Virus record (IMG/VR): IMGVR_UViG_2711768069_000006 | Length of the DNA: 7,070 nucleotides | Direction: 5' to 3' (one strand) | Source of the DNA: a virus | Taxonomy: Duplodnaviria; Heunggongvirae; Uroviricota; Caudoviricetes | In this document: in pieces, positions 1 to 6,460 of the stretch | How the letters are laid out: each line of letters begins with the position of its first letter | How positions within the stretch are numbered: the first letter of the stretch is position 1 | Made by a program: the position numbers and the translations under genes | Notes under the pieces: generated by a model | Database searches by the model: none | Seen by the model: only the letters and a program-made list of their open reading frames with translations | Told to the model about the DNA's origin: nothing

Positions 1-195
1 ATACTGCCCGACGGAAATCCCGGCTTTTTGTGCAGCCAGCGCCTGGCGGCTCAGGCCCTGTTCAACAGCACTGGCGGTTTTTCTGGCGTCAGTCTCCAGT
101 CCGGAAAAATGACGCCTTACCCGGCTCATCTGCTCATCGAAACGGACCGCATCCAGACTCAGGTCAATAACAAGATCACCAACCGGCTGGGACAT
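1..195 (-). CDS. H: Tail tape-measure protein, N-terminal 65 codons (gene runs off the left edge of the window)
   Basis: Minus-strand ATG at 195..193; my translation of 195..1 is MSQPVGDLVIDLSLDAVRFDEQMSRVRRHFSGLETDARKTASAVEQGLSRQALAAQKAGISVGQY, which closely matches the lambda gpH N-terminus as I recall it. Frame is open to position 1. Start overlaps the end of the T frame (stop 176..178) by 20 nt. Not in the ORF track because it has no stop within the window. Confidence 0.9.
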   Translation of the reverse strand, partial: MSQPVGDLVIDLSLDAVRFDEQMSRVRRHFSGLETDARKTASAVEQGLSRQALAAQKAGISVGQY

Positions 196-1047
196 ATCTC
201 ACACCTCCGGAAATCCCCGCTGAAGCCATCATTAATGCGACATCATCCTCGCTGACATCCGCCACATCCGCAGACGATAAAATCTCACGCCCTCCGTCCC
301 CACCAAACCGGACGCCTCCGGCAAGTCCTGCCGCTTTCTGCATCAGCATTTTTTCCTCATCCGGCATCTCCGTCTGCGCTTCCTCACGCCGGGGGGCAAG
401 CAGACTGAAATCAGAGGGATGCATATCCGGATCGCAAAAAAACAGGCTGAGTACGGCGTACGTCAGCCCGGAAAAATGCATATCCAGCTGGGTATCGAGA
501 AAATAATGCGTACGGTAAAAACGGTGCCAGTCGGCATATTCGGTGGATGTCATCCCGGCAAGCATGGCGCGCCAGTCAGGCCTCCCCATCTCACGCGCCA
601 GTCTGAGGGCAAAATTCAGCTCGCCGTCGAAGACTTTCCCGCAGAAAAATCATCATCAGTCAGCGCGTTATTTTTCGCCACTTCAGTAATATCAGTATCC
701 GGACGAACAGCTTCGATCATCCCGGACAGGCACAACACCACGTCTTCCGCCCGGGCAATGGCATCGGCAGGCCAGGTGGTGAGCACTTCCTGCTCTATCT
801 TCATCACGGCCTCATTCATTGACGGTGACTGCGTTTTCTGTGGATGGTTATGCCACAGGGACATCGCCACCAGAAACGCGCCGGTTCTGACGAGATCTTC
901 CACGCTTACCTGCAGGTTGCCGCTGGATTCTGCCTGTTCTGCACGCCGTTTCAGGAGGGCAAGATGCTCGATACGCTGCAGCGCAGACAATTCGGAAAGC
1001 GTGACGGACACACCGTTATATTCAAATTGTTCTGTTTTCAGAAACAT
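176..1047 (-). CDS. T: Tail assembly chaperone G-T fusion made by -1 programmed frameshift (G frame 1047..~635, then T frame to 176)
   Basis: The T-frame ORF (track 176..589, containing MLAGMTSTEYADWHRFYRTHYF) stays open upstream through the slippery site at 634..640 with no stop; I translated 640..587 in that frame as GKVFDGELNFALRLAREM. The T frame is exactly -1 relative to G. T has no independent ribosome binding site context, as expected for a frameshift-only product. Confidence 0.85.
616..1047 (-). CDS. G: Tail assembly chaperone G (143 aa)
   Basis: Protein MFLKTEQFEYNGVSVTLSELSALQRIEHLALLKR... closely matches lambda gpG. I place the start at the ATG at 1047..1045, preceded by GGAGG (about 1053..1057), rather than the track start at 1119, which would overlap V by 59 nt. 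Confidence 0.9.
   Translation of the reverse strand: MFLKTEQFEYNGVSVTLSELSALQRIEHLALLKRRAEQAESSGNLQVSVEDLVRTGAFLVAMSLWHNHPQKTQSPSMNEAVMKIEQEVLTTWPADAIARAEDVVLCLSGMIEAVRPDTDITEVAKNNALTDDDFSAGKSSTAS
634..640 (-). promoter_or_regulatory. Slippery heptamer G GGA AAG (minus strand) for the G/GT -1 ribosomal frameshift
   Basis: Plus-strand ctttccc at 634..640 is GGGAAAG on the minus strand. GGA and AAG are the zero-frame Gly-Lys codons of G (protein ends ...FSAGKSSTAS), 7 codons before the G stop at 616..618. This is the same heptamer and frame arrangement as the lambda G/GT shift site. Confidence 0.85.
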
Positions 1048-1060
1048 GTATGACCTCCGT

Positions 1061-1813
1061 TTACCCTGCAGCGCCCGCTTCAGTAACGGTGACTTCAGCC
1101 ACTGCGGCGAACTGACCATTTCCGCTCACCACAGGGATCTGCACCTTACCTGTCGCCACGCCGTTTACCGTAATTGTCATATCTTTCACACTAATGGTGG
1201 CTTTCGACGGATCGGCGGAAACCGCTCTGAACGTCTTGTCTGTTGCACTTTCCGGCTCAAAAGAAACCGTCAGGGTGGTTGTTTTCCCTTTTGCCACCGT
1301 ACCGGATGTCGGCGTCACCTTAATCGCACTGACCGGCGTAATTTTGCTGCGTTCTTCCGCTACAGAAGGTTTGCCCACGTTGGTCACTTTCACCGTGCGG
1401 GTGATCACTTCTTTCGCCGTCACGGCCTTACCGATACTGCTGACCCAGCCACGAAACACATCCACCGTGCCGTTCGGAAAACGGATTTTATAGGCCCGCA
1501 CATCCCCGCTTTCAAACCAGCCTATAAGCCCTTTCTGACCTTCTTCTCCCGGTTTCCAGGCCAGCGTAAAACTGGTATCTCCTGCAGACTTCTGCCCCTG
1601 CCCGGTCGCGGTCCAGTCCGCGTCTTCATCATCCAGGTAGTTATCATCGTAGGGTTCTGCCGTCATCTCGCCCGGCGTCAGATCCTTCACCTTAGCCAGT
1701 CGCAGCCAGTCATCGTCTGACAACGGGTTTGCATAAGCATCACCCTTGCCGTTGTAAACCCACAGAGTGGTACCGGCACCTTTTACCGGCTCAAGGGGAT
1801 TTGGTGTTGCCAT
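1061..1813 (-). CDS. V: Major tail tube protein V (250 aa) with C-terminal Ig-like domain
   Basis: Near-collinear match to lambda gpV ([91 protein letters not shown]-terminal ...[29 protein letters not shown]). GAGGA Shine-Dalgarno immediately upstream, overlapping the U stop. Confidence 0.96.
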
Positions 1814-2803: not shown

Positions 2804-3157
2804 TTATCGTCGCCGGTTAACAGCGGGTGGTTGCCCACGGTTGAGCCAGAGATAACAGCTTCCCCCGTCATCCGGAGAAACACGATCCACCCAGAACATC
2901 TCGCCGTTAATGGTCAGCGTGTCACCACGCCGCACGGCACGCACCGTATCCGTCCGCACAAATAATGACGGGCTGCTTCCTTCAATACGGACCCCGCCAC
3001 CGGCAAAACCCAGCGACTCCGGATCGTCAAAAACCCCCTGAACTTCGCCGCCACGTTGTGCCCCCGAGGTGAACTGCGCACAGAGCCCCATCACTTCAAC
3101 AATCGTTCTGTCCACCCCGGCAAGGGCAGCATCAAAGGAATTCTCAAAATCACGCAT
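2804..3157 (-). CDS. FII: Head-tail joining protein FII (117 aa)
   Basis: MRDFENSFDAALAGVDRTIVEVMG...GVFDDPE...GVRIEGSSPSLFVRTDTVRAVRRGDTLTI...FWVDRVSPDDGGSCYLWLNRGQPPAVNRRR matches lambda gpFII, including the identical C-terminal tail. Start overlaps the FI stop by 8 nt. Confidence 0.94.
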   Translation of the reverse strand: MRDFENSFDAALAGVDRTIVEVMGLCAQFTSGAQRGGEVQGVFDDPESLGFAGGGVRIEGSSPSLFVRTDTVRAVRRGDTLTINGEMFWVDRVSPDDGGSCYLWLNRGQPPAVNRRR

Positions 3158-3518
3158 AAACGGCCATTCCGCTCCTAACCATGTCTTTTGCCACTGAGGG
3201 GGGCATCAGAATTACTCTGCCAGCATCAACATGCTCAACAGGCTCACCTGTTTCATCGTCAACACCGCACAGGTAAAAACACTTCAGAAGCCTGATACGT
3301 TCCAGAATACCAACGTCATCCTCACCGGTGTGCCTGCATGCCTGCTCATGAACGGTATCATCAACATCTGCGATTTCATTTTCCGAGGCGCAAACCTCCT
3401 CTTCCCACTCTGCCACACGCTGTGCGATATCCGCAGCACTCCCCGACATATCCGCCTCGCGCCCCAGCAGACCAGCCAGTTCACGAAGACGTTTCTGATT
3501 TTCTTCTTTTGTTGCCAT
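3150..3518 (-). CDS. FI: DNA-packaging / head assembly protein FI-like, divergent (122 aa)
   Basis: Position between E and FII, similar size, and loose resemblance to lambda gpFI at the N-terminus (MATKEENQKRLRELAGLLGRE...), but clearly more diverged than its neighbours. I place the start at the ATG at 3518..3516, preceded by GGGAG; the track start at 3566 is a GTG inside the upstream hairpin with no ribosome binding site. Confidence 0.7.
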   Translation of the reverse strand: MATKEENQKRLRELAGLLGREADMSGSAADIAQRVAEWEEEVCASENEIADVDDTVHEQACRHTGEDDVGILERIRLLKCFYLCGVDDETGEPVEHVDAGRVILMPPSVAKDMVRSGMAVYA

Positions 3519-3569: not shown

Positions 3570-4598
3570 TTATTTCACCTGTACCACCACAAACTCATCC
3601 GGATCCGGCAGCACCATCAGCGGCGCGGACTGCGTCATGGTGAATTCACAGGACGGATCGCCCACGGTCAGCCAGTGTTTCGGGTAACGGGAAGAAGCCA
3701 CCACTCCTTCAGACAACGCCTGTGCATCCTTAATGGCTCCATAGCAACGAATCCCCTCTGCTGCCGTATTCCCCAGCACCAGCGTGCCCTCCGGCAGATA
3801 ACGTTTTTCGGTACCGTCCTCTGCCACATAAGACGTTTTCGCCACCACAATGGCCAGATCGCCGTAATACCCCTTGAAGGATACCACTGCGCCCAGATCT
3901 TTCACTGCCGTTTCGAGTTGTGAATTTGAACCGCGACGGGTATCCATTTTTTCGCGGAAAAGCTTAAAGCCATTCAGCAGACGCCAGACGGTACCGTCCA
4001 TAATGGCAATATTCACAAGACCACTGGCCTGATCACAGAAAAGGTCGATATCATATGTCGGGTCGAACGTGTCACGATCCTGTTTTGACCACTCCTTACC
4101 GCTACCTTGTATGATGTTATTCTTCGTCGATCGGCCAAAATCGACTTCAATTTTCTCGAACTGGTCTCCTTCCATCGTATATTTGCCATACAGCACGGCA
4201 TTCACCGCCTGCATTTCTTCCACCTGCACAATAGCGTGCTCTTCCTGTTTGAGGTTATCAGTGATGATACGCAGACGACGGTAGGCCGGGTCGTTCAGCT
4301 GAGCCGGATCTTCACCGGGAAGGCGCTCAACCGCCTGCTGGTAATTAAATTCGTGTTTCGGCTTGACGTAGCCCGGACGCAACACGCGGGTTTCACCACC
4401 ACGATGGCGCAGCACTTTTCCTTCAACGATCGGGGAGACATAGGCCGCCACCGGCGTTTTTCCGGTAATTTTGTCCAGCATCACCTCTTCGGTGTGGAAA
4501 TTCACCGTACGGCGGAAAAACAGCTCCAGAAATAGCGCACGGAATTTCACTTTTTGTTCGGTATAACCGAGTAACTGGCGGGTCGTAAACAATCCCAT
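3570..4598 (-). CDS. E: Major capsid protein E (342 aa)
   Basis: Collinear match to lambda gpE (YVSPIV, PGYVKPKHE, DPAYRRLRII, QVEEMQAV, KYTM, TRRGSNS, LETAVKDLG, GNT...YG, SAPLM, DPDEFV). AAGGAA Shine-Dalgarno 7 nt upstream of the ATG at 4598. Confidence 0.97.
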   Translation of the reverse strand: MGLFTTRQLLGYTEQKVKFRALFLELFFRRTVNFHTEEVMLDKITGKTPVAAYVSPIVEGKVLRHRGGETRVLRPGYVKPKHEFNYQQAVERLPGEDPAQLNDPAYRRLRIITDNLKQEEHAIVQVEEMQAVNAVLYGKYTMEGDQFEKIEVDFGRSTKNNIIQGSGKEWSKQDRDTFDPTYDIDLFCDQASGLVNIAIMDGTVWRLLNGFKLFREKMDTRRGSNSQLETAVKDLGAVVSFKGYYGDLAIVVAKTSYVAEDGTEKRYLPEGTLVLGNTAAEGIRCYGAIKDAQALSEGVVASSRYPKHWLTVGDPSCEFTMTQSAPLMVLPDPDEFVVVQVK

Positions 4599-4655: not shown

Positions 4656-5003
4656 TTACGGCAGAGCCGCGTGACTCAGGGCTGTGCCGGCAAAGGCATT
4701 TGCCTTTTTGTGTTCATCCACACTGTCAGGCCAGCGGATTGCCTCCGTCGCAAAGGTCCCCGACTTGTAATAGGTCAGCACCGTCTCTGTGCCTTCAAGC
4801 GGCAGTACCAGTATGCCAACCGCACTACCGGCTTTCTGTCCATCCCAGACCACCAGTTTCCCGGTGGCTTCATCCAGCATCAGGGGCGTCAGAGCCGGTG
4901 TTGCAGAAGAAATCCCGCTGCTGCCTGTGGCGGTATGAGCCGGATCATTACCAGCAAAAATACGTACTTCCGCACGCTGTTCAGTGATGGTTTTCGTCAC
5001 CAT
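4656..5003 (-). CDS. D: Head decoration protein D (115 aa)
   Basis: NDPAHTAT, TPLMLD, KLVVWDG, AVGIL, YKSGTF and AFAGTA motifs match lambda gpD; position between C/Nu3 and E; ATG at 5003..5001. Confidence 0.93.
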   Translation of the reverse strand: MVTKTITEQRAEVRIFAGNDPAHTATGSSGISSATPALTPLMLDEATGKLVVWDGQKAGSAVGILVLPLEGTETVLTYYKSGTFATEAIRWPDSVDEHKKANAFAGTALSHAALP

Positions 5004-5039: not shown

Positions 5040-5642
5040 TCATGGCATGGCCATGAGCATTTTCACGTCCGCATCACCGTCTGCTGACGTCTGTGACACG
5101 CCACCCCGCACCGCTGCCGGTGAATGATTCGCCATGAAATGTTCAAACAGGGCGGTTGTGGATGCAGAGACCGGTTCGGCCTTACCTGATCCCGCAGCCA
5201 GCACAGCCCGGGCGTTCTCCACGGTCATTCCCGGGCAGGCAGCCAGTTTTTCAGCCTGCGCTTCTGCCCCTTTTGCCTCATCCAGGGCCATGATCTGATC
5301 ACGAAGTGAGGGCCCGGCATCCGCCAGTGGTGCAGCCGCCAGGATCGGGCGGGCTTTTTCCACCGTCATCTCCGGCATCGCCGCCAGCGTTGCCGCCAGT
5401 TGTTCACGACCGTTCGCTTCTTCACACGCCATAATGCGATCGGCTTCACTCTGCGCGGATGCCACCGGCTGCTGCGGTGCCGCCGCGGCCAGAATCGCCC
5501 GGGCCTGTTCAACGCTCATGCCCTGTTGCCCTGCCAGCATCGTGGCAAGCTGTTCACGTCCTTTCGCTTCCTGACACGTCAGGATCCCCATCACTCGCTG
5601 GTTCTCCTGCACTGCGGCTTCCGTTGCAGTTAATTGCGGCAT
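5040..5642 (-). CDS. Nu3: Nu3-like scaffolding protein, translated from a nested in-frame start inside C (200 aa)
   Basis: Internal ATG at 5642..5640 preceded by GAGGAGG (5653..5647); product begins MPQLTATEAAVQENQRVMGILTCQEAKGRE... The product length of 200 aa is essentially the same as lambda Nu3, which is likewise nested in-frame in the 3' part of C. Confidence 0.65.
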   Translation of the reverse strand: MPQLTATEAAVQENQRVMGILTCQEAKGREQLATMLAGQQGMSVEQARAILAAAAPQQPVASAQSEADRIMACEEANGREQLAATLAAMPEMTVEKARPILAAAPLADAGPSLRDQIMALDEAKGAEAQAEKLAACPGMTVENARAVLAAGSGKAEPVSASTTALFEHFMANHSPAAVRGGVSQTSADGDADVKMLMAMP

Positions 5643-6460
5643 AGTGCCTCCTCTGACATTACTGTTCAGCGCCGTGGCCATCACACTGATGGCATCCGAC
5701 GCATTGATTAATTCATCCGCCAGCCCGGCCTCAATGCCGGACTGACCTTCAAAAACGGCGGCCTCTGTTCCCGTGACGGCATCAACAGACAGACCGGTAA
5801 ACATGGCCACTTTTTCGGCAAACATCCGGCGCGCCGCATCAATGCGCTGCTGCATGTCCTGGCGAACCTCTGCCGGTAAGGCTTCAAACTGATTGCCATC
5901 CACCTTGTGCGCCCCTGAGTAAATCAGCGTGATATCCACACCGGCCTGCGCCAGATGACCGGCATAGCTGACATGGCTCATCATCACGCCAATGGAGCCG
6001 ATACGGGATGTCTGGGTAACCAGCCGTCGGGAGCAGGCCGACGCCAGCAGCATGGCTGCAGAACAGGCCGTGTCATTGCACAGTGCCCAGACCGGCTTCT
6101 GCTGACGGAGGCGGTAAATCATGTCAGCGCAGTCAAACGCGCCGGCGGCCTGCCCGCCCGGACTGTCAATGTCCAGCAGTACGCCCCGCACCTGGCTATC
6201 CGCCATTGCCTGCTGAAGACAGGCGACAATGCCGTCATAGCCTGTCATTCCGGAAAATGGCCGCATACCCCCCAGCCGGTGCACCAGCGTGCCGGTCACC
6301 GGCAGTACAGCAATACCGTTCACCACCCATGTGGTACCGAAAGACTTGCTGCCCCCATCTCGCGCCCGAGCGCGCAAAAGAAAACCCGCGCATAGGCGGG
6401 CTCCAGAAGCAGCGGTTCATTGAATGCTGCGGCAATAATGTGTGAAAGATTACGTCTCAC
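5040..6460 (-). CDS. C: Head maturation protease / minor capsid protein C; reading frame is interrupted near the 5' end (frameshift or error at about 6330..6365)
   Basis: The main ORF (5040..6416 in its frame) encodes VVNGIAVLPVTGTLV..., with strong resemblance to lambda gpC through the protease and scaffold regions. It has no credible start in its own frame: no ATG or GTG before the conserved region, and the track start is a TTG with no Shine-Dalgarno. The lambda-like N-terminus (V)RRNLSHIIAAAFNEPLLLEPAYARVFFCALG is in the other frame (6460..6323, stop at 6320..6322), starting at a GTG at 6460 behind GAGGAG and overlapping the B stop by 11 nt. Confidence 0.85.
5172..5600 (-). repeat. Three tandem diverged repeats of about 141-150 bp (about 48 aa) within the C/Nu3 scaffold region
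   Basis: Protein repeats: RVMGILTCQEAKGREQLATMLAGQQGMSVEQARAILAAAAP / RIMACEEANGREQLAATLAAMPEMTVEKARPILAAAP / IMALDEAKGAEAQAEKLAACPGMTVENARAVLAAG. At DNA level, compare the segments starting at about 5196, 5337 and 5487 (for example gccaggatcgggcgggctttttccaccgtcat versus gccagaatcgcccgggcctgttcaacgctcat). Confidence 0.75.

What the first reader, a model, noticed from the sequence alone, without database searches (positions are those of the whole stretch)
634..640. The lambda G/GT -1 frameshift signal is conserved to the nucleotide
The minus strand carries G GGA AAG with GGA-AAG as the zero-frame Gly-Lys codons of G, 7 codons before the G stop. The T ORF is in the -1 frame and is open through the site, with no start context of its own. 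This arrangement lets me annotate a G-T fusion that an ORF caller would report as two unrelated ORFs, and it indicates the tail assembly module is functional.
Basis: partly seen in the sequence, partly recalled or inferred. Interest (0 to 1): 0.4.

Follow-up and report, generated by a model that had tools for sequence, protein, structure and literature searches.

The report
Lambda-type G/GT tail chaperone frameshift site
This is the well-known programmed -1 ribosomal frameshift site of phage lambda's tail-assembly chaperone genes G and T, present intact in a lambda-like E. coli-type prophage; it is real but ordinary and already understood.

Summary
GGGAAAG lies at 640..634 on the minus strand, phased G GGA AAG in gene G (616..1047), with GGA 7 codons before the TGA stop. 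The T frame is -1 and opens at 649, 9 nt upstream of the heptamer. The two frames overlap by 34 nt.

G matches lambda gpG (PF06894, TIGR01674). The -1 extension matches lambda gpT (PF06223, TIGR01715). The genes sit between V and H as in lambda. The 15 bases TTTCTGCGGGAAAGT and the distance to the G stop are identical to lambda.

In 266 related loci, T is always -1 and an in-phase slippery heptamer is always present in the overlap. Only the A-AAG core is near-constant (265/266). T's first ATG (589) has the weakest Shine-Dalgarno of the 11 starts scored. It is Phe in many relatives, and conserved coding sequence lies upstream of it. PGAP still annotates G and T separately.

The mechanism is tandem -1 slippage giving a 143-aa G and a minor 290-aa GT. 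This has been known since 1993.

Two caveats. A nested hairpin starting 7 nt downstream is only a weak candidate stimulator. The window also carries a private 85-nt frameshifting deletion in head protease gene C, so "functional" holds at most for the tail genes seen here.

The parts
634..640 (-). Slippery heptamer G GGA AAG (X XXY YYZ) at the site of -1 slippage. The last G (634) is read twice in the fusion.
   Evidence: identical to lambda's site
616..1047 (-). Gene G: tail assembly chaperone, zero-frame product of 143 aa (15.7 kDa), stop TGA at 616-618
   Evidence: PF06894 E=1.9e-51; TIGR01674 equivalog, 167.7 bits against cut-off 74.45; size
1054..1058 (-). GGAGG Shine-Dalgarno of G. This single initiation site serves both G and GT.
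   Evidence: duplex -10.2 kcal/mol
176..634 (-). T segment (-1 frame) of the fusion. GT = complement(join(176..634,634..1047)), 290 aa, 32.1 kDa. The -1 frame is open from 649.
   Evidence: PF06223 E=3.7e-12, found only in the fusion; TIGR01715 equivalog, 203.8 bits against cut-off 77.35; size
650..658 (-). Three consecutive TGA codons in the -1 frame (Asp-Asp-Asp GAT codons in the G frame). They close the T frame immediately upstream, limiting productive -1 entry to 616-649.
587..589 (-). First ATG in the T frame. PGAP uses it as the T start. It is probably not a real initiation codon.
   Evidence: PGAP CDS; SD -2.3 kcal/mol, weakest of the 11 starts scored; Phe in N15, phi80, cdtI
556..626 (-). 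Candidate downstream stimulatory structure (inconclusive). Outer stem 619-626 pairs with 556-563 and starts 7 nt 3' of the heptamer. It encloses an inner hairpin, 593-600 pairing with 565-572.
   Evidence: specificity control not passed
1061..1813 (-). Gene V (major tail tube protein with C-terminal Big_2 domain), upstream neighbour of G as in lambda
1..195 (-). 5' end of gene H (tape measure protein). The ATG is at 193-195 and overlaps the end of T. H is cut by the window edge.
   Evidence: SD -10.8 kcal/mol

Best explanation
This is the programmed -1 ribosomal frameshift site of a lambda-type tail assembly chaperone gene pair.

Ribosomes initiate once, at the strong G start (ATG 1047). Most read G GGA AAG in frame and terminate 5 codons after the AAG codon, giving G (143 aa). 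A small fraction slip back one base while tRNA-Gly and tRNA-Lys occupy GGA-AAG. These tRNAs re-pair with GGG-AAA, and the ribosome then continues with GTC TTC GAC... in the T frame, giving the 290-aa GT fusion.

By homology with lambda, G and the G part of GT coat the tape measure protein H. The T part recruits the tail tube protein V. Neither protein ends up in the virion, and the large G:GT excess is set by the frameshift frequency.

Shown here: the sequence, phase and frame geometry; homology of both halves; synteny; conservation of the arrangement in relatives; and the lack of a credible independent start for T.

Inferred from lambda experiments and not tested here: that slippage actually occurs, its frequency (about 4%, roughly 30:1), and the protein functions.
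For: - Sequence and phase.
- Chance expectation in the overlap is about 0.03 or less.
- G = PF06894/TIGR01674 and T = PF06223/TIGR01715, both above curated cut-offs.
- Gene order Z-U-V-G-T-H.
- The heptamer, its flanks and the stop spacing are identical to lambda.
- tblastn of the fused protein hits 185 phage records, and each of the 40 records listed matches in two pieces (G and T in different frames).
- T is -1 in all 15 inspected loci, and an in-phase slippery motif lies in the overlap in 14 of them. The exception is the decayed Shigella copy.
- In 266 of 266 loci with the T motif, an in-phase heptamer sits exactly 42 nt upstream of the ARE(F/M)GR motif. Counts: 156 GGAAAAG, plus one further locus (L151) with that heptamer and an upstream CGAAAAG; 105 GGGAAAG; 2 AAAAAAG; 1 AGAAAAG; 1 GGGAAAA.
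- N15's record annotates its GGAAAAG as 'slippery sequence for -1 translational frameshift'. Phage 434's record annotates a joined GT CDS.
- T lacks its own start.
- Literature: lambda G/GT slippery sequence GGGAAAG, zero frame kept about 96% of the time, tRNA-Lys(UUU) thiolation modulates the rate (PMC3296357); 30:1 ratio and chaperone roles (PMC5009743); G_GGA_AAG is highly shift-prone in E. coli (PMC5009743; PMC6924986).
Against: - There is no expression or protein data for this locus.
- No Rfam family covers the site.
- No SD-like stimulator is visible upstream of the heptamer (direct reading).
- The downstream structure is not convincingly selected, so the efficiency here cannot be predicted.
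- The prophage carries a disrupted head protease gene. The signal may therefore sit in a defective element that is rarely or never expressed productively.
Confidence: 0.93

Rival explanations
1. T is an independent gene translated from its own ATG at 589, as PGAP annotates. The heptamer is then irrelevant.
For: An ATG exists at 589, and PGAP calls a 137-aa CDS from it. The ORF listing reports the same ORF.
Against: - It has the weakest SD pairing of the 11 starts scored in the window (-2.3 kcal/mol).
- The 15 codons between the heptamer and this ATG encode residues conserved across relatives (E143, F146, A151, R152, E153 invariant).
- Those codons lie inside the TIGR01715 profile match.
- The Met is Phe in N15, phi80, Kp4865-4, cdtI, Fels-1 and the Providencia phage.
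- Reviews of the lambda work describe T sequence made as the frameshift fusion gpGT (PMC5009743).
Confidence: 0.03
2. T is made by termination-reinitiation coupling. Ribosomes finishing G at TGA 616-618 scan 27 nt and restart at ATG 589.
For: The G stop and the ATG are close together, and coupling is common in phage late operons (general knowledge).
Against: The objections are the same as for independent initiation: conserved coding sequence upstream of the ATG and a non-conserved Met. Coupling also does not explain why an in-phase slippery heptamer is retained in 266 of 266 loci, at a fixed 42 nt from the T motif.
Confidence: 0.02
3. The signal is an intact relic in a defective prophage. It is sequence-perfect but no longer used, because the element cannot make particles.
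For: There is an 85-nt frameshifting deletion in head protease gene C within the same window. It is absent from the complete E. coli genomes listed as best matches.
Against: Z, U, V, G and T are all full length against their profiles. The G/T segment is 100% identical to that of an apparently intact prophage, so there has been no decay in the tail module. The Shigella copy, which has many stops and frameshifts, shows what real decay looks like. This rival concerns present-day use, not what the element is.
Confidence: 0.15
4. The frame change arises by transcriptional slippage (RNA polymerase stuttering on the A run), not by ribosomal slippage.
For: The motif contains a homopolymeric run.
Against: The A run is only 3 nt long (4-6 nt in relatives). 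From general knowledge of the systems reviewed in PMC5009743, productive transcriptional slippage needs much longer runs. In lambda the rate responds to tRNA-Lys modification (PMC3296357), which points to the ribosome.
Confidence: 0.01

Closest known systems
Phage lambda G / G-T -1 programmed frameshift (Levin, Hendrix and Casjens 1993; Xu, Hendrix and Duda 2004, 2013, 2014)
   Same: - Identical heptamer G GGA AAG.
- An identical 15-nt core, TTTCTGCGGGAAAGT.
- The same 7-codon distance to the G stop.
- The same -1 frame, and the same position between V and H.
- The fused protein is 73% identical to lambda's.
   Different: - The G C-terminal tail upstream of the site has diverged, with indels.
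- The -1 frame opens only 9 nt upstream (three TGAs), against 39 nt in lambda.
- The first post-slip codon is GTC here, against GTG in lambda. Lambda's RefSeq T CDS can therefore be drawn from that GTG, whereas here no start codon exists at that position.
- T is longer at its C-terminus and overlaps H by 20 nt, against 8 nt in lambda.
N15 gene 14/15, phi80, cdtI and Fels-1 tail chaperone frameshift (G GAA AAG)
   Same: The proteins are homologous, the frame geometry is the same, and the heptamer sits at the same distance (42 nt) from the conserved ARE(F/M)GR motif.
   Different: Their P-site codon is GAA (Glu), which re-pairs with GGA through a second-position mismatch. PMC6924986 describes this motif as less slippery. 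The window has the fully canonical lambda version.
E. coli dnaX tau/gamma frameshift (A AAA AAG)
   Same: Both are -1 tandem slippage in E. coli that ends on A-AAG and is decoded by the single tRNA-Lys(UUU). Both set a fixed ratio of two products from one initiation event.
   Different: dnaX has a proven upstream SD-like element and a downstream stem-loop, shifts about half of the ribosomes, and gives a shorter product. Here no SD-like element is present, the downstream structure is unproven, the expected rate is a few percent, and the product is longer.

Membership tests
Lambda-type G/GT tail assembly chaperone with -1 PRF | Two ORFs lying between the major tail protein gene and the tape measure gene | tested here: met
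   V (PF16461 + Big_2) is at 1061-1813, then G, then T, then H starting at 195. PGAP's neighbour list in the prophage that is 100% identical over window 150-1100 agrees.
Lambda-type G/GT tail assembly chaperone with -1 PRF | The downstream ORF is in the -1 frame relative to the upstream ORF and overlaps its 3' end | tested here: met
   The T frame is -1 and open from 649. The G stop is at 616-618, giving a 34-nt overlap.
Lambda-type G/GT tail assembly chaperone with -1 PRF | An in-phase slippery heptamer X XXY YYZ inside the overlap | tested here: met
   G GGA AAG at 640..634 is the only such motif in the overlap.
Lambda-type G/GT tail assembly chaperone with -1 PRF | The upstream product is homologous to lambda gpG | tested here: met
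   PF06894, 173.5 bits against cut-off 27. TIGR01674 equivalog, 167.7 bits against cut-off 74.45.
Lambda-type G/GT tail assembly chaperone with -1 PRF | The -1 extension is homologous to lambda gpT | tested here: met
   PF06223, 46.9 bits against cut-off 25.9. TIGR01715 equivalog, 203.8 bits against cut-off 77.35.
Lambda-type G/GT tail assembly chaperone with -1 PRF | T has no independent initiation, and coding constraint extends from the slip site | tested here: met
   ATG 589 has the weakest SD of the 11 starts scored. Residues upstream of ATG 589 are conserved and lie inside the TIGR01715 match. The Met is not conserved. This is a sequence-level inference only.
Lambda-type G/GT tail assembly chaperone with -1 PRF | The frameshift arrangement is conserved among homologues despite sequence divergence | tested here: met
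   266 of 266 loci keep an in-phase heptamer 42 nt upstream of the T motif, across fused proteins down to 28% identity.
Lambda-type G/GT tail assembly chaperone with -1 PRF | A GT fusion protein is actually made at a low percentage of G and is required for tail assembly | not testable with these tools
   This is known for lambda only (PMC5009743; PMC3296357). It needs protein or reporter experiments on this sequence.
-1 PRF sites with a downstream RNA stimulator (dnaX/IS911-like) | A stable structure 5-9 nt 3' of the heptamer that is maintained by selection | tested here: inconclusive
   For:
- A nested stem starts 7 nt downstream (dinucleotide-shuffle z = -2.0).
- It is present in the lambda, Stx, N15, phi80 and Kp lineages.
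- 90% of cells are paired, and one pair covaries cleanly: A-U in 34 sequences, G-C in 17.
- Synonymous variation is suppressed on the inner arms.

Against:
- With the protein held fixed, z for the window is only -1.35.
- Control segments elsewhere in T score as low.
- The structure is not kept in the cdtI, Fels-1 and Providencia clade.

The most novel reading that the evidence does not exclude
The lambda / Stx-phage / N15 / phi80 clade of G/T genes shares a conserved nested RNA structure. An 8-10 bp outer stem begins 5-7 nt 3' of the heptamer and pairs the end of G with T codons 26-28. It encloses a GGCGCG/CGCGCC hairpin formed by the LAR and WRA codons. This structure could act as a frameshift stimulator and would explain the unusual nucleotide-level conservation of the first 30 T codons. 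As far as I could find in the held literature, no defined stimulator has been described for lambda G/T, but I could not read Levin et al. 1993.
Probability: 0.2. Interest if true: 0.35.

Novelty: already known. Interest (0 to 1): 0.08.

Why it matters
The practical value is annotation. PGAP, and even lambda's own RefSeq record, list G and T as separate genes. As a result the biologically essential 290-aa GT fusion is missing from protein sets, and T is given an arbitrary, truncated N-terminus. Recognising the heptamer allows the correct join, complement(join(176..634,634..1047)).

Biologically it adds nothing new. It is one more lambdoid prophage with the textbook signal. The family-wide survey done here shows that only the A-AAG core is near-constant (265 of 266 loci). 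About 60% of the sampled relatives use the nominally less slippery G GAA AAG. This is a modest, mostly known point: N15's site is annotated as such.

Tried and rejected
1. Rfam scan of the whole window found nothing. No curated family exists for this site.

2. Levin et al. 1993 and Xu et al. 2013 are not in the held library. Statements about lambda therefore rest on reviews and on Maynard et al. 2012. Two further literature searches found no description of a lambda G/T stimulator.

3. The genome-contig scan gave little diversity. Most hits were lambda DNA itself in assemblies of unrelated genera. I switched to three viral-contig scans with differently ordered alignments.

4. Downstream structure as a proven stimulator. 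Dinucleotide shuffles, covariation counts and synonymous-site conservation looked encouraging. Synonymous-codon randomisation gave only z = -1.35 for the window. Equal-sized control segments of T reached z of -2.3 to -3.5. I therefore do not claim it.

5. Upstream SD-like stimulator. Neither the 30 nt upstream of the heptamer in the window nor the roughly 30 nt upstream in lambda contains GAGG, GGAG or AGGA (direct reading). Rejected.

6. Other slip sites in the overlap. The script found no other in-phase X XXY YYZ heptamer or A-AAG tetramer between 616 and 649. P-site-only slippage on T TTT at 645-648 cannot be excluded as a minor route, but nothing supports it.

7. Tandem repeat search of the window returned nothing.

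8. Sharma et al. 2014 was searched for G_GGA_AAG values but yielded no usable passage.

Full report
**What is in the window.** The minus strand of the 7070-nt window carries the late-operon head-tail module of a lambdoid prophage:
- the 3' end of the portal gene;
- the S49 head protease/scaffold gene (lambda C homologue, 5040-6377 plus a detached 5' fragment);
- head decoration protein D (4656-5003);
- major capsid protein E (3570-4598);
- FI (3150-3518) and FII (2804-3157);
- Z (2213-2788), U (1821-2216) and V (1061-1813);
- G (616-1047);
- the T frame (176-649);
- the first 195 nt of tape measure gene H.

Window 150-1100 is 100% identical to a prophage in the chromosome of E. coli Z1323HEC0393. 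It is 95% or more identical in about 1,460 complete E. coli records. Its best matches in the phage collection are an Escherichia phage (96.6%) and Stx2a-converting phages (96.2%).

**Checking the observation.** The minus strand reads ...ACT GAT GAT GAT TTT TCT GCG GGA AAG TCT TCG ACG GCG AGC TGA.
- GGGAAAG occupies 640..634.
- GGA and AAG are zero-frame Gly-Lys codons of the 143-aa G ORF.
- GGA is the 7th codon before the TGA at 616-618.
- In the -1 frame the three Asp codons read as TGA TGA TGA. The frame then opens at 649 and stays open through the heptamer to a stop at 176-178.

A bare GGGAAAG is expected about once in a window of this size and composition (1 found, 1.15 expected), so the heptamer alone means nothing. 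Its phase and position are what matter. Among 1847 in-phase positions in the window's genes, only five carry any canonical X XXY YYZ motif, and only this one is XXXAAAG. The overlap offers about ten in-phase positions. The chance expectation is therefore roughly 0.03 for any canonical motif and 0.005 for this class.

**What it is.** G matches the lambda gpG family (PF06894, E = 1.9e-51; TIGR01674 equivalog, 167.7 bits against a cut-off of 74.45). The -1 extension matches lambda gpT (PF06223, E = 3.7e-12, seen only in the fused protein; TIGR01715 equivalog, 203.8 bits against a cut-off of 77.35).

A direct alignment with lambda NC_001416 shows 15 identical bases across the site (TTTCTGCGGGAAAGT) and the G stop at the same distance. 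The G C-terminal tail immediately upstream has diverged, with indels. The fused protein is 73% identical to lambda GT.

**Comparative evidence.** A tblastn search with the fused protein finds 185 phage records, and each of the 40 records listed matches in two pieces, meaning G and T lie in different frames.

In 15 loci inspected by script, T is in the -1 frame every time. An in-phase slippery motif lies in a 25-85 nt overlap in 14 of them. The exception is a Shigella flexneri copy, which is a decayed pseudogene with multiple stops and frameshifts in G.

I extended the survey to 272 loci from three scans of viral contigs plus annotated phages. Of these, 266 have a recognisable T motif. All 266 have an in-phase heptamer exactly 42 nt upstream of the ARE(F/M)GR motif:

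| Heptamer | Loci |
|---|---|
| GGAAAAG | 156 (plus L151, which also has an upstream CGAAAAG) |
| GGGAAAG | 105 |
| AAAAAAG | 2 |
| AGAAAAG | 1 |
| GGGAAAA | 1 |

The lambda heptamer is thus one of several variants, and only the A-AAG core is near-constant (265 of 266). N15's GenBank record annotates its GGAAAAG as the 'slippery sequence for -1 translational frameshift'. The phage 434 record carries a joined GT CDS.

**T has no start of its own.**
- The first start codon in the T frame is ATG 589, which PGAP uses.
- Its upstream region pairs with the anti-SD at only -2.3 kcal/mol, the weakest of the 11 starts scored in the window. G scores -10.2 and H scores -10.8.
- The 15 codons between the heptamer and that ATG encode residues that are invariant across relatives down to 28% identity (E143, F146, A151, R152, E153).
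- Those codons lie inside the TIGR01715 profile match, which begins at residue 5 after the slip.
- The Met itself is Phe in N15, phi80, Kp4865-4, cdtI, Fels-1 and a Providencia phage.
- The first post-slip codon is GTC here, against GTG in lambda. So not even the device used in lambda's RefSeq record, where T is drawn from that GTG, is available here.

**Mechanism.** The best-supported mechanism is the lambda one. There is a single initiation at G. tRNA-Gly and tRNA-Lys slip together by -1, from GGA-AAG to GGG-AAA, in a few percent of ribosomes. The result is abundant G (143 aa, 15.7 kDa) and scarce GT (290 aa, 32.1 kDa).

For lambda, the held literature states the following:
- The zero frame is kept about 96% of the time.
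- Both Lys codons are read by tRNA-Lys(UUU), and loss of its 2-thiolation raises frameshifting and lowers phage yield (PMC3296357; PMC7618472).
- The G:GT ratio of about 30:1 is critical. G binds the tape measure protein and the T domain binds the tail tube protein V. Neither protein is in the virion (PMC5009743).
- G_GGA_AAG is among the most shift-prone heptamers in E. coli (PMC5009743; PMC6924986).

These steps are inferred for this locus by homology. None was tested here.

**Stimulatory elements.**
- No SD-like element is visible in the 30 nt upstream of the heptamer (direct reading), and Rfam has no matching family.
- Downstream, folding predicts a nested structure. An outer stem (619-626 with 556-563) starts 7 nt after the heptamer. 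It encloses a GGCGCG/CGCGCC hairpin (593-600 with 565-572). The dinucleotide-shuffle z-score is -2.0.
- The same architecture is predicted in lambda, 434, Stx1 phages, N15, phi80 and Kp4865-4. It is not predicted in cdtI, Fels-1 or the Providencia phage.
- On 51 distinct sequences, 90% of cells pair, against 22-45% when the partners are slid. One pair covaries without exception (A-U in 34 sequences, G-C in 17), and its 3' change is synonymous. Most pairs never vary, and the covariation probably reflects a single event.
- Synonymous variation is suppressed at T codons 13, 14, 16, 21, 23 and 24, which form the inner arms.
- With the protein sequence held fixed, native folding is lower than synonymous-randomised versions in all eight lineages of that clade. 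The window's own z is only -1.35.
- Control segments elsewhere in T reach z of -2.3 to -3.5.
- I therefore record the structure as a candidate only.

**The 'functional module' remark.** Z, U, V, G and T are full length against their profiles, which is consistent with an intact tail module as far as the window shows. The window is not collinear with the intact E. coli prophage, however. It lacks 85 nt inside the 5' part of the S49 head protease gene, with the junction at 6330|6329. Because 85 is not a multiple of three, the first 46 codons run into a stop (ORF 6320-6460). The remainder (5040-6377) is left with only a TTG and a weak SD. In the best-matching complete E. coli genomes listed, the 85 nt are present: every listed hit is two pieces spanning 276 nt. 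The element may therefore be defective for head maturation. An intact frameshift signal says nothing about that.

**Verdict.** The element is a textbook lambda G/GT -1 frameshift site, already known both as a mechanism and, in effect, as this very sequence in public genomes. Its only practical consequence is a corrected annotation: complement(join(176..634,634..1047)). Interest is low.

Noticed in passing
window 6329/6330 (minus strand), affecting 5040-6460: There is an 85-nt deletion relative to the otherwise near-identical E. coli prophage, inside the 5' part of the S49 head protease (lambda C homologue). It shifts the frame: a 46-aa N-terminal fragment (ORF 6320-6460) ends in a stop, and the large ORF 5040-6377 keeps only a TTG pseudo-start. 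The 85 nt are present in the best-matching complete E. coli genomes listed.
   Followed up: partly
loci L005-L022: The genome-contig scan returned lambda-identical G/T loci in assemblies labelled as unrelated genera (Neobacillus, Oceanobacillus, Kitasatospora, Shewanella, Leeuwenhoekiella, Pseudomonas, Chromatium and others). Many are low-coverage contigs, and three are about 48.4-48.5 kb, which is the lambda genome length. This looks like lambda DNA contamination of those assemblies, not real prophages.
   Followed up: no
related loci L024, L025, L028-L031 and about 150 IMG/VR loci: About 60% of the sampled G/T homologues use G GAA AAG rather than a canonical X XXY YYZ heptamer. The P-site tRNA-Glu would re-pair with a second-position mismatch, and PMC6924986 calls this motif unfavourable for slippage. 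Single variants also occur: AGAAAAG (L187) and GGGAAAA (L148). Only A-AAG is near-constant.
   Followed up: partly
window 650-658 (minus strand): The Asp-Asp-Asp codons (GAT GAT GAT) of G read as three consecutive TGA stops in the T frame, ending 9 nt before the heptamer. In lambda the -1 frame opens 39 nt upstream instead. In this lineage any premature -1 slip would terminate at once. Whether this is selected or incidental is unknown.
   Followed up: no
L023 1480-2000 (Shigella flexneri SFBU0723 chromosome): This is a decayed copy of the same locus. G is interrupted by several stops and frameshifts, yet TTTCTGCGGGAAAGTGTTCGACGG is still recognisable. It is a useful contrast with the intact window.
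   Followed up: partly
window about 419-505 (minus strand; T codons 45-73): In the synonymous-randomisation control this segment of T folds much more stably than expected from its protein sequence in the window, lambda and Stx1a lineages (z = -2.6 to -3.5). It does not in N15, phi80 or Kp4865-4. The cause is unexplained. It could be a lineage-specific RNA structure or a codon-composition effect.
   Followed up: no
window about 5040-5500 (minus strand), C-terminal part of the protease/scaffold ORF: The translation shows three imperfect repeats of about 40 aa (…QEAKGREQLATMLAGQQGMSVEQARAIL…, …EEANGREQLAATLAAMPEMTVEKARPIL…, …DEAKGAEAQAEKLAACPGMTVENARAVL…) in the region corresponding to the nested scaffold (Nu3-like) part. 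Tandem Repeats Finder sees nothing at the DNA level.
   Followed up: no
L001 (lambda NC_001416) 10115-10549; L002 7512-7925: Public annotation of T is inconsistent. Lambda's RefSeq record starts T at the GTG whose first base is the last base of the heptamer. PGAP starts the window-type T at an internal ATG 45 nt further on. N15 marks the CDS as 5'-partial with a slippery-site feature. Only phage 434 among the inspected records carries the correct joined CDS.
   Followed up: yes
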